A stretch of DNA of 64,000 nucleotides from Escherichia coli O127:H6 str. E2348/69 (lineage in GTDB: Bacteria > Pseudomonadota > Gammaproteobacteria > Enterobacterales > Enterobacteriaceae), in the NCBI RefSeq assembly GCF_000026545.1, contig NC_011601.1. The stretch is one strand, 5' to 3'. The stretch's first letter is position 1, and each line of letters begins with the position of its first letter. Position numbers: made by a program. Shown in pieces: positions 6,001-9,000 of the stretch.

Positions 6001-9000
6001 TTATCTTCCACCACAATATCGCCGGTTAATGCCATCGACTGCGCCCCTGTCAGGAGATAGCTGCCATCTTGCGCTACCGTCAACTGTCCTTCACCCTGAA
6101 TCGAGCCGGAAAAACCGCCCTGGTTTACTGTAACATTGCCGCCTGCGTCGATATTCAAAATGCCATTAGCAAAACCGGTTAATGAGTGCACAAACGTTTG
6201 TTGTGTATTGCCAACATTCAGTTCTGCCTGATACTCAGAATGAACAGTGCTGCCGACCATCAGACCAAAGCAATCCTGCGGATCGCTCTGACAGTGCGTG
6301 TCGCCGACATTCATTAACTCATCGCTGCGCCCCAACGTCACCTCGCCATTCTGGATACTCATCTCGCCGGTAAACGCATTATTGTCGGCATTGAGGACTA
6401 ACTCTCCCGCTCCCTCTTTAACGATGACTCCCGTTCCGGCAAGAGAATCAATCGCGCCATCGTTGCTGGTATTGCCTATTACCAGCGTTTTATCGGCGGC
6501 AATGTTAAATTCAGCCACACTATGACCGATATACATAAAGCCCCCCGCCGCTGCCGTCGCCGAATGGTCATATCCCGAGGCGCTGTTATTTTCATCAATC
6601 ATCACACCATTGTTTTGGTCATAATTATCATCAACAGAAATATCAATAAGATACGGGGATGTGGTGCTGCTGGTATAAATTGCTCCGCCATAACCTTCTG
6701 CATAGTTATTGGTAAAGGAGGTATTATTAATTATCGTTTTTCCTGAAAGATGTGTGTTATCCGTACTATTATCCGTAACATCAATGGCGCCGCCATCCCC
6801 ATCACTATAACTTGTTGATGTATATGCCTGGTTATTATTAAAAGCATCATCACTTAAATAGACGTCATTATTGATGGTATAAATTGCACCGCCTTTGCCG
6901 TCATTAGCGATGTTATTGTGAAATACGGCGTTAGTGACACGTAAATCGGCGGCACCGGTATCATTGGTACCGGCAGAATAGATTGCTCCGCCATAGCCTC
7001 CTGCAACATTACTGTCGAAAATAACATTCGCAAGATTTATCGTTGAGTTTTCTTTAGCAAAGATAGCCCCACCATTATTATATTCGCCACTAACCGAGTT
7101 ATCAGCAAACAGGGTCATCCCTGTTTCATTTTGTGGTGATATCGTAAATTCAGCACCTTGCTGCAAAAATACTGCGCCACCGCTGGCATTATTGGCCATA
7201 CCCGAAAAAATCAACCATTGCCCATCCGCGATGCTCCAGTCCTGCATATTGCCTGAAAGGCTTTGCCTGCTGGCCTGACAGCTCGCTTTGATATCATATC
7301 CCTGACATGAATCAATGACCGCTGCGGCACCGTTACCAGAGAAAAGAGATGCAATCATTGACGGGAGTAAAGATAAATACTCCTTGCGTAGAAAGATAAT
7401 CCGCATATTCATCTAACCATCATTTTCTATAAGATGGCGTATTTAATCGCATTATGCGATATAGGGTATTTTTCTTTTGTAAATTCTGCCCCTGATGTAA
7501 TAACTATTTTGTTATTATCTGATAATTAATTTAGATGTATCACAATTCAAATTATTAACTTTAAGGTAAATCGGTTATATTTAAACTGAATTAAAGCAAT
7601 AAATAATATTCTTATAATAAATACAAAAGTAACAAATTGGCTTAGTATTTAACAATAACCGAATATAAAACAACCATTTCCGACTCAACAATCGCTTACA
7701 CTCGCTTATATATTGACCACAACTGATACATCAGATTATGTGACGACTTGTGCCTAGATCAATTTTGGCAATCATTAGCAACAAGATTAATAAACCATCT
7801 ATATCAATTTACCTATCCTATTTTACCGTTCAAGAATTCACCGAACGGTTATTTTTAACAAATTTTTCTCTTCCCATTGACTTTCCCGGACACCTTGTCT
7901 GACCTAAGGTGCGCGGAAGCCACTTTTTCCTTCCTGAGTTATCCACAAAGTTATGCACTTGCAAGAGGGCCAGTTTCACACTATCTTGCAGTGAATCCCA
8001 AACATACCCCCTATATATAGTGTTATTAGCAGCTTCCCTCACTACAGGTAGTCTGCATGAAGCTATTGAAAAACAGGTACGACATACATGAATCAGAATC
8101 TGCTGGTGACAAAGCGCGACGGTAGCACAGAGCGCATCAATCTCGACAAAATCCATCGCGTTCTGGATTGGGCGGCAGAAGGACTGCATAACGTTTCGAT
8201 TTCCCAGGTCGAGCTGCGCTCCCACATTCAGTTTTATGACGGTATCAAGACCTCTGACATCCACGAAACTATTATCAAGGCTGCCGCAGACCTGATCTCC
8301 CGTGATGCGCCGGATTATCAGTATCTCGCCGCACGTCTGGCGATCTTCCACCTGCGTAAAAAAGCCTACGGTCAGTTTGAGCCGCCTGCGCTGTACGACC
8401 ATGTGGTGAAAATGGTCGAGATGAGCAAATACGATAATCATCTGCTGGAAGACTACACGGAAGAAGAGTTCAAGCAGATGGACACGTTTATCGATCACGA
8501 CCGTGATATGACCTTCTCTTATGCTGCCGTTAAGCAGCTGGAAGGCAAATATCTGGTACAGAACCGCGTGACCGGCGAAATCTACGAAAGCGCCCAGTTC
8601 CTTTATATTCTGGTTGCCGCGTGCCTGTTCTCGAACTACCCGCGTGAAACGCGCCTGCAATACGTGAAGCGTTTTTACGACGCGGTTTCCACATTTAAAA
8701 TTTCGCTGCCGACGCCAATCATGTCCGGCGTGCGTACCCCGACTCGTCAGTTCAGCTCATGCGTGCTGATCGAGTGCGGCGACAGCCTGGATTCCATTAA
8801 CGCCACCTCCAGCGCGATTGTTAAATACGTTTCCCAGCGTGCCGGGATCGGCATCAACGCCGGGCGTATTCGTGCGCTGGGTAGCCCGATTCGCGGTGGC
8901 GAAGCGTTCCATACCGGTTGTATTCCGTTCTACAAACATTTCCAGACCGCGGTGAAATCCTGCTCTCAGGGCGGTGTGCGCGGCGGTGCGGCAACGCTGT

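What the first reader, a model, noticed from the sequence alone, without database searches (positions are those of the whole stretch)
7413..7900. Very AT-rich region of about 490 bp upstream of the yfaL autotransporter
The region between the yfaL start and the nrdA control elements is visibly about 75 percent A+T with phased A/T tracts, typical of H-NS-bound, silenced promoters of surface adhesin genes. This suggests yfaL is normally cryptic and that the region also insulates nrdA from yfaL.
Basis: inference. Interest (0 to 1): 0.3.

Follow-up and report, generated by a model that had tools for sequence, protein, structure and literature searches.

The report
AT-rich H-NS-bound spacer upstream of yfaL
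This is the very AT-rich DNA that came into E. coli with the yfaL adhesin gene and sits between it and the ribonucleotide reductase operon; in the K-12 strain the same stretch is already catalogued as a "promoter island" bound by the silencing protein H-NS, so the finding is real but ordinary.

Summary
The window is E. coli E2348/69. Positions 7413-7900 lie in the 681-bp divergent spacer between yfaL (start 7406, minus strand) and nrdA (start 8088).

**Observation: partly confirmed.**
- The stretch is 70.7% A+T, not 75%. It reaches 74.7% over 7413-7700 and 81% over 7500-7660.
- It is the most AT-rich stretch in the 64 kb.
- The "phased A/T tracts" are not there: periodicity and predicted curvature do not exceed dinucleotide-preserving shuffles.

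**The stretch is composite.**
- 7407-~7825 (72.8% A+T) is found only in genomes that carry yfaL. About 70 Enterobacterales genomes have ubiG followed directly by nrdA, with a spacer of about 350 bp.
- ~7826-8087 is the ancestral nrdAB control region, so the finding's right-hand 75 bp already lie inside the nrd controls.

**Interpretation: largely already published for K-12.**
- The orthologous K-12 stretch is a listed "promoter island" that is bound by H-NS in all the ChIP studies compared.
- It also binds H-NS and RpoD holoenzyme in genomic SELEX.
- yfaL is studied through inserted constitutive promoters, which fits silencing.
- The "insulator" idea has no support, because H-NS is itself reported to repress nrdAB.

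Verdict: already known, low interest.

The parts
3648..7406 (-). yfaL/ehaC, an AIDA-I-type autotransporter adhesin gene. The annotated start is 7406; an in-frame ATG lies at 7412. The 5' 900 bp are only 43% G+C, against 53% for the rest of the gene.
   Evidence: RefSeq annotation. Pfam hits: Autotransporter beta-domain, AC_1 autochaperone and PATR. G+C by segment.
7407..7825 (.). yfaL-linked, lineage-specific AT-rich spacer (72.8% A+T). It is absent from genomes that lack yfaL and corresponds to most of the published K-12 promoter island and H-NS target.
   Evidence: Literature.
7500..7660 (.). AT-richest core (81.4% A+T). It is also the most divergent part between E. coli lineages: 79% identity between E2348/69 and K-12 over 7454-7690.
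7735..7762 (-). Predicted sigma-70 promoter for yfaL, TTGATC-16-CATAAT. It is the same motif that Shimada et al. name for yfaL in K-12. Both hexamers are identical in K-12, and the -35 hexamer contains a GATC. It implies a leader of about 320 nt running through the AT-rich core. It is a prediction only; no TSS is known.
   Evidence: Absence of a known TSS.
7361..7422 (.). Approximate position of two ChIP-exo peaks listed for yfaL in the GadEWX study (which of the three factors the table covers was not read). I mapped them from K-12 version-2 coordinates 2342146-2342207, assuming an offset of about 1978 bp. No expression change was reported.
   Evidence: The mapping is my inference, good to a few bp.
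7826..8087 (+). Ancestral nrdAB regulatory region, conserved in yfaL-less Enterobacteriaceae. Elements:
- Fis-like site 7828-7842.
- 20-bp A/T block 7849-7868.
- DnaA boxes 7939-7947 and 7951-7959.
- -35 hexamer 7959-7964.
- -10 hexamer 7982-7987.
- NrdR box 1 at about 8007-8023 and box 2 at 8040-8055.
   Evidence: Alignments. Motif positions. NrdR boxes as described in PMC12176259. The Fis and -35/-10 assignments are inference from sequence and prior knowledge.
7830..7973 (-). Counterpart of the K-12 small ORF ypaB. In E2348/69 the ATG is CTG and the ORF is not annotated.
8088..10373 (+). nrdA, the class Ia ribonucleotide reductase alpha subunit.

Best explanation
The stretch is the upstream region of the yfaL autotransporter gene, and it has two parts.

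Left part, about 420 bp (7407-~7825, 27% G+C). This DNA is present only where yfaL is inserted between ubiG and nrdA. Its composition (73% A+T, many TpA steps and many -10-like hexamers) makes it a substrate for the nucleoid protein H-NS. H-NS nucleates on AT-rich DNA and spreads into a filament. That filament would cover the yfaL promoter(s), the long AT-rich leader and the AT-rich 5' end of yfaL. This keeps yfaL silent under ordinary growth, which is xenogeneic silencing of a 'promoter island'.

Right part, 75 bp (7826-7900). This is the distal end of the ancestral nrdAB upstream activating region.

What is shown here: the composition, the absence of helical phasing, the composite origin and the promoter-like density.
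What is taken from the literature on the K-12 orthologue: H-NS and RNA polymerase occupancy, and the use of an inserted promoter to see a YfaL phenotype.
What is inferred: that the same holds in E2348/69, whose tract is 87% identical with the same A+T profile, and that silencing acts by filament occlusion or RNAP trapping.
For: Composition and rank in the window.

Insertion origin:
- About 70 Enterobacterales loci have gyrA-ubiG-nrdA with a spacer of about 350 bp at about 60% A+T.
- yfaL lies between ubiG and nrdA only in E. coli, E. albertii, a Pseudocitrobacter MAG, strain RIT691 and Rahnella bonaserana.
- Homology to yfaL-less genomes starts at about 7826.

Composition is conserved while sequence is not:
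- The A+T profile is the same in K-12, another E. coli, E. albertii and Pseudocitrobacter (50-bp bins of 70-84% over roughly the first 250-450 bp).
- Sequence identity in the core is only 79% between E. coli lineages. This fits a constraint on composition, as expected for H-NS.

Promoter-like content:
- Promoter-like sites are 12 times denser than the window mean (4 against 0.34 per 488 bp, the maximum in the window).
- TANNNT hexamers number 36 against a mean of 8.7.
- TpA steps number 59 against a mean of 21.

Literature:
- Promoter island 2342143_534, H-NS-bound in all the ChIP studies compared.
- Genomic SELEX shows H-NS and RpoD holoenzyme in the spacer and names TTGATC-16-CATAAT. My scan found the same motif at 7762-7735.
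- A constitutive promoter was inserted upstream of yfaL to study the YfaL biofilm phenotype.

The tract is present in 5425 of 5426 complete E. coli genomes.
Against: - There are no H-NS or expression data for strain E2348/69, and none could be generated here.
- No good match to the H-NS high-affinity motif TCGATAAATT was found: only three 2-mismatch hits, with no enrichment.
- There is no helical phasing or excess curvature.
- The promoter-like density is fully explained by composition (4 found, 3.9 expected in shuffles), so 'promoter island' adds nothing beyond AT-richness.
- I found no paper showing yfaL derepression in an hns mutant. The primary papers on yfaL crypticity and on H-NS at nrd were not held.
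- In RIT691 and Rahnella the yfaL upstream region is only 57-58% A+T, so AT-richness is not an obligatory companion of yfaL.
Confidence: 0.8

Rival explanations
1. The AT-rich tract is mainly an upstream regulatory element of nrdAB. In this reading it is the cis-acting AT-rich sequence reported to be needed for cell-cycle-dependent nrd expression, together with the Fis and IciA sites, and it is not a yfaL silencer.
For: [quoted passage not shown]
- Fis, IciA and DnaA are reported to activate nrdAB.
- A conserved Fis-like site (7828-7842) and a 20-bp A/T block (7849-7868) lie inside the finding's coordinates.
Against: - Only ~7826-7900 is conserved with genomes that have nrdAB but no yfaL. Those genomes manage with a spacer of about 350 bp.
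- The AT-richest 420 bp are yfaL-specific and diverge quickly (79% identity), unlike the nrd-proximal part (96.5%).
- The exact position of the published AT-rich element could not be checked because the paper is not held.
Confidence: 0.12
2. The tract acts as an insulator or topological buffer. It would stop yfaL silencing from spreading into nrdAB, or absorb the negative supercoils produced by divergent transcription.
For: - The genes are divergent, and a strongly expressed essential operon sits next to a silent gene.
- The spacer is 665-702 bp in all five yfaL-bearing lineages.
- AT-rich DNA melts easily (general knowledge).
Against: - No terminator or other discrete barrier-like element was found, and no notable repeats.
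- H-NS is reported to repress nrdAB as well.
- The SELEX authors argue that H-NS in a divergent spacer affects both promoters. That points to coupling rather than insulation.
- Nothing in the sequence distinguishes this tract from any other AT-rich H-NS target.
Confidence: 0.05
3. The tract is a compositional relic with no function of its own: AT-rich intergenic DNA carried in with a horizontally acquired gene and drifting neutrally.
For: - The core shows high divergence between E. coli lineages (79%).
- No conserved motifs are shared across genera.
- There is no Rfam hit.
- The ypaB start codon is not conserved.
- Every motif count equals the compositional expectation.
Against: - The A+T profile is maintained across Escherichia and Pseudocitrobacter although the sequence has turned over.
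- The block around the predicted promoter is better conserved (91%).
- In vivo H-NS occupancy is published. Binding has consequences for transcription whether or not the DNA was selected for it.
Confidence: 0.1

Closest known systems
E. coli K-12 'promoter island' 2342143_534 (yfaL/ypaB), one of the 78 islands of Panyukov and Ozoline 2013, and the yfaL<HNS>nrdA spacer of Shimada et al. 2014
   Same: It is the orthologous locus. By my coordinate conversion the island maps to about window 7358-7891. The A+T profile is the same, the predicted yfaL promoter hexamers are the same, and the flanking genes are the same.
   Different: The allele is that of a phylogroup-B2-type strain: 87% identical over the finding and 79% in the core. 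ypaB lacks its ATG, and 13 bp are missing from the nrdA leader. No binding data exist for this strain.
H-NS-silenced upstream regions of other cryptic E. coli adhesin genes (ycgV, yadN, sfmA, elfA, yehD, ecpR, fimB/E/A)
   Same: These are AT-rich promoter islands next to surface-adhesin genes, listed as H-NS-bound in the same table. They show the same logic of xenogeneic silencing.
   Different: Here the silenced gene is wedged directly against an essential, highly regulated housekeeping operon (nrdAB), and the two share one divergent spacer.
Intrinsically curved, A-tract-phased H-NS nucleation sites (classical 'bent DNA' upstream of promoters)
   Same: AT-rich DNA upstream of a promoter. There is one local predicted bend near 7767, next to the predicted yfaL promoter.
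   Different: There is no 10-11 bp phasing and no curvature beyond composition-matched shuffles. It works like an AT-rich H-NS target, not like a phased-A-tract bend.

Membership tests
H-NS-bound xenogeneic 'promoter island' | A+T content far above the genome background over at least 300 bp | tested here: met
   70.7% over 488 bp and 72.8% over 7407-7825, against 47.8% for the window. It ranks first in the 64 kb.
H-NS-bound xenogeneic 'promoter island' | Unusually high density of promoter-like sites on both strands | tested here: met
   4 sites per 488 bp against a mean of 0.34; 36 TANNNT hexamers against 8.7. This used a simple consensus scanner, not PlatProm, and the excess is fully explained by composition.
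H-NS-bound xenogeneic 'promoter island' | Association with a horizontally acquired gene | tested here: met
   yfaL and 7407-7825 are absent from about 70 Enterobacterales genomes that keep ubiG-nrdA adjacent. They are present patchily in 5 lineages.
H-NS-bound xenogeneic 'promoter island' | H-NS occupancy in vivo | not testable with these tools
   Published for the K-12 orthologue in three ChIP data sets and in SELEX. There are no data for E2348/69.
H-NS-bound xenogeneic 'promoter island' | Little productive transcription of the adjacent gene; derepression without H-NS | not testable with these tools
   The evidence is indirect. YfaL phenotypes are studied with an inserted constitutive promoter, and no TSS is recorded. 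I found no hns-mutant expression data for yfaL.
Phased A-tract / intrinsically curved DNA | A/T tracts repeated in phase with the helix (10-11 bp) | tested here: not met
   Spectral power is 0.40 against 0.63 +/- 0.28 in shuffles.
Phased A-tract / intrinsically curved DNA | Predicted curvature above composition-matched controls | tested here: not met
   Mean bend is 18.0 against 17.6 +/- 2.5 degrees. The maximum of 42.7 degrees is reached by 20% of shuffles (my own wedge model, with parameters recalled from the literature).
nrdAB upstream regulatory region | Conserved upstream of nrdA in relatives whether or not yfaL is present | tested here: inconclusive
   Met for ~7826-8087 only, so 75 of the finding's 488 bp qualify. 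Not met for 7413-7825.
Transcriptional insulator between divergent genes | A discrete barrier element (terminator, bound boundary protein) and independence of the two promoters | tested here: inconclusive
   No terminator-like sites and no notable repeats. Independence cannot be tested here, and the literature reports that H-NS also acts on nrdAB.

The most novel reading that the evidence does not exclude
H-NS control of the essential nrdAB operon in E. coli could be a by-product of the yfaL insertion. The yfaL-linked AT-rich tract, which lies roughly 170-590 bp upstream of the inferred nrd transcription start, would serve as the nucleation platform from which H-NS reaches the nrd promoter. 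Acquiring an adhesin gene would then have rewired ribonucleotide reductase regulation. The prediction is that nrdAB does not depend on H-NS in yfaL-less relatives such as Citrobacter or Enterobacter, or in an E. coli with 7407-7825 deleted.
Probability: 0.15. Interest if true: 0.45.

Novelty: already known. Interest (0 to 1): 0.12.

Why it matters
It matters little beyond annotation. It places a catalogued H-NS target and promoter island in an EPEC genome, and it corrects two details: there is no A-tract phasing, and the right end overlaps the nrd controls.

The modest added value is the comparative result. The AT-rich tract is cargo of the yfaL insertion at a ubiG-nrdA junction that has been hit repeatedly by insertions. 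This gives a concrete, testable question: did that insertion bring H-NS control to the neighbouring essential nrdAB operon?

Tried and rejected
- Rfam scan of 7000-8400 at E<=1: no hits, so no known RNA element.
- Terminator scan: none found.
- H-NS high-affinity motif TCGATAAATT: only 2-mismatch hits, no enrichment.
- IHF consensus WATCAANNNNTTR: no match anywhere in the window.
- Repeats: only a 12-nt direct pair (7754/7799) and two weak inverted pairs. Nothing suggests a mobile-element scar.
- Helical phasing and curvature: not above shuffles.
- A 'cassette' idea, in which yfaL, the spacer and an E. coli-type nrd promoter move together: rejected. RIT691 carries yfaL with the Citrobacter-type nrd promoter, and Rahnella shares the E. 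coli-type DnaA-box arrangement.
- A hidden coding gene: the only annotated candidate, ypaB, loses its ATG in this strain.
- Primary papers not held by the library: Cendra 2013, Sun 1994, Augustin 1994, Babu 2017, Roux 2005. The exact positions of the published Fis site, AT-rich element and H-NS sites at nrd could therefore not be verified. Where I give such positions they are inference from the sequence.

Full report
**Identity of the locus.** A megablast of 7300-8100 against complete E. coli genomes gives a 100% match to E. coli E2348/69, and the stretch is present in 5425 of 5426 genomes. In that record the genes are:
- gyrA on the minus strand.
- ubiG on the plus strand.
- yfaL on the minus strand, at window 3648-7406.
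- nrdA on the plus strand, from 8088, followed by nrdB and yfaE.

The yfaL-nrdA spacer is therefore 7407-8087 (681 bp), and the finding covers its yfaL-proximal 72%. Pfam confirms that YfaL is an autotransporter, with a beta-domain, an AC_1 autochaperone and PATR repeats.

**Checking the observation.**
- The stretch 7413-7900 is 70.7% A+T. It is 74.7% over 7413-7700 and 81.4% over 7500-7660, but only 65% over 7701-7900. The window as a whole is 47.8%.
- It is the most AT-rich stretch of 488 bp or 200 bp in the 64 kb. The next independent peak is 64.5%.
- The stated 75% is slightly too high for the stated coordinates, but the feature is real.
- The 'phased A/T tracts' did not hold up. The tracts are listed.
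- AA/TT spectral power at 10-11.5 bp is below the mean of dinucleotide-preserving shuffles.
- A wedge-model curvature calculation that I wrote, with parameters recalled from Bolshoy et al. 1991, gives a mean bend equal to shuffles. Its single local peak near 7767 is reached by 20% of shuffles.

**What the stretch is made of.** I scanned one genome per species with the NrdA N-terminus, which gave 80 Enterobacterales loci, and located GyrA, UbiG, YfaL and NrdA in each by tblastn.
- The common arrangement is gyrA(-), ubiG(+), nrdA(+). In the closer relatives (Enterobacteriaceae) the ubiG-nrdA spacer is about 340-360 bp at about 60% A+T; across all yfaL-less loci the median is 412 bp.
- A yfaL-type gene sits between ubiG and nrdA only in E. 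coli, E. albertii, a Pseudocitrobacter MAG (69% amino-acid identity), strain RIT691 (55%) and Rahnella bonaserana (53%).
- In all of these the yfaL-nrdA spacer is 665-702 bp.
- In alignments, similarity to yfaL-less genomes begins at about window 7826 (GTTCAAGAATTCACC) and runs to nrdA. In those genomes the ubiG terminator hairpin lies immediately to the left of that block.

The spacer is therefore composite. Positions 7407-~7825 (27.2% G+C) belong to the yfaL insertion. Positions ~7826-8087 are the ancestral nrdAB control region, whose elements are:
- a Fis-like site at 7828-7842;
- an A/T block at 7849-7868;
- DnaA boxes at 7939-7947 and 7951-7959;
- a -35 hexamer at 7959-7964 and a -10 hexamer at 7982-7987;
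- NrdR boxes downstream (boxes as described in PMC12176259).

The 5' 900 bp of yfaL are also G+C-poor (43%), whereas the rest of yfaL and both neighbouring genes are 53-54%.

**Conservation pattern.**
- Between E2348/69 and K-12 the AT-rich core (7454-7690) is only 79% identical.
- The block around the predicted yfaL promoter (7691-7825) is 91% identical.
- The nrd-proximal part (7826-7995) is 96.5% identical.
- Across genera the yfaL-proximal sequence is not alignable in any meaningful way.
- Even so, the A+T profile is kept in K-12, a second E. coli, E. albertii and Pseudocitrobacter, with 50-bp bins of 70-84%.

This is the pattern expected if composition rather than sequence is what matters.

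**What is already known about it.**
- Panyukov and Ozoline list a 'promoter island' 2342143_534 between yfaL and ypaB. They mark it as associated with foreign genes and as H-NS-bound 'according to all studies' (Grainger, Kahramanoglou, Oshima) (PMC3661553).
- With a version-2 to version-3 offset of about 1978 bp (my inference), that island maps to about window 7358-7891. That is essentially the finding.
- Shimada et al. list the yfaL<HNS>nrdA spacer as binding both RpoD holoenzyme and H-NS in genomic SELEX. They name TTGATC-16-CATAAT as the yfaL promoter (PMC3946193).
- The consensus scan found exactly that motif at 7762-7735 on the minus strand. Both hexamers are unchanged in K-12.
- ChIP-exo peaks from the GadEWX study lie at the yfaL start, but no expression change and no TSS were recorded (PMC4918353).
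- YfaL function is studied by inserting a constitutive promoter upstream of the gene (PMC3764049).
- In this window promoter-like sites are 12 times denser in the stretch than on average, and TpA steps and TANNNT hexamers are 3-4 times denser. All of this equals what dinucleotide composition predicts.

**Mechanism.** The best-supported reading is xenogeneic silencing.
- H-NS binds the AT-rich tract that arrived with yfaL and oligomerises over the promoter(s) and the leader.
- That leader is about 320 nt long if the predicted promoter is used.
- The filament probably also reaches the AT-rich 5' end of the gene, and it keeps yfaL off.
- Occupancy is published for K-12. Extension to E2348/69 and the mode of repression are inference.
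- I found no strong nucleation motif, so binding would rest on composition.

**The insulator idea.**
- Nothing supports it. No terminator or barrier-like element was found.
- H-NS is reported as a repressor of nrdAB (PMC4009431; PMC12176259).
- The SELEX authors state that H-NS in a divergent spacer is expected to affect both promoters.
- That paper is not held. I can only say that a conserved 20-bp A/T block at 7849-7868, inside the finding but in the ancestral part, is a candidate for that element.

**Comparison with known kinds, and novelty.**
- This is the E2348/69 allele of a catalogued K-12 promoter island and H-NS target.
- It belongs with the other AT-rich, H-NS-bound upstream regions of cryptic adhesin genes in the same table (ycgV, yadN, sfmA, elfA, yehD, fim).
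- It does not qualify as phased-A-tract curved DNA.
- Novelty: already known.
- The only open angle is whether the inserted tract is what brings H-NS to nrdAB. I rate that at about 15% and of moderate interest if true.

**Limits.**
- No binding or expression data exist for this strain.
- Several primary papers were unavailable.
- The curvature model and the coordinate conversion are my own.

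Noticed in passing
window 8069/8070 (nrdA 5' leader): E2348/69 lacks 13 bp (CGGAAAGAATTCC) that K-12, E. 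albertii and, in variant form, Pseudocitrobacter carry in the nrdA leader. The lower-identity hits listed (about 89-90% identity) stop aligning at query position 769, which is this point, so the deletion appears typical of the B2-like allele. It lies in the leader, where an inverted repeat needed for cell-cycle control has been reported (title only).
   Followed up: partly
window 7830-7973 (-): The K-12 small ORF ypaB (47 aa, overlapping the nrd DnaA boxes and -35 on the opposite strand) has CTG instead of ATG in E2348/69 and is not annotated there. This argues against ypaB being a conserved gene.
   Followed up: yes
window 7863-7977; locus L083 2501-2615: There are 235 matches on E. coli plasmids to a 115-bp piece of the nrd upstream region. 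In the one plasmid I inspected, the tandem DnaA boxes and the -35 hexamer (TTATCCACAAAGTTATGCACTTGCAA) are identical. The copy lies in an unannotated gap next to genes for a DNA polymerase III theta homologue and a HumD-family protein, which suggests a phage-plasmid-like replicon.
   Followed up: partly
loci L013, L027, L062, L033, L058, L069, L055 (ubiG-nrdA junction): The ubiG-nrdA junction is a recurrent insertion point.
- yfaL-like autotransporters are present in Pseudocitrobacter, RIT691 and Rahnella bonaserana, while their relatives lack them.
- Unrelated cargo is present in Pantoea formicae (FGGY kinase), Pantoea varia (GntP permease) and Mixta (LysR regulator, MFS transporter, SDR, split transketolase).
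- In L055 no UbiG or GyrA match lies within the 8 kb upstream of nrdA; its content was not examined.

   Followed up: partly
window 7939-8060 versus L005-L016 (alignment A2): Two architectures of the nrd core promoter exist.
- E. coli, E. albertii, Pseudocitrobacter and Rahnella have DnaA boxes just upstream of the -35 hexamer.
- Citrobacter, Enterobacter, Klebsiella, Leclercia and RIT691 lack them there. Instead they have an inverted pair of DnaA-box-like sequences (TTATCCACA ... TGTGGATAA) in the leader.

   Followed up: no
window 3648-7406 (-): YfaL is only 83% identical between E2348/69 and K-12. The flanking UbiG and NrdA proteins are 99-100% identical. The adhesin and its upstream tract are both hypervariable within the species.
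   Followed up: no
window 7757-7760: The only GATC in the spacer lies inside the -35 hexamer (TTGATC) of the predicted yfaL promoter. SeqA binding at nrdA has been reported (PMC2912659). A possible Dam/SeqA influence on this promoter is untested.
   Followed up: no
window 27136-29059, 45611-47118, 62689-63176: These are other AT-rich islands in the window (61-65% A+T over 488 bp; up to 74.5% over 200 bp at 28735-28934). The strongest predicted bend in the whole window is at about 28740. I did not examine them.
   Followed up: no
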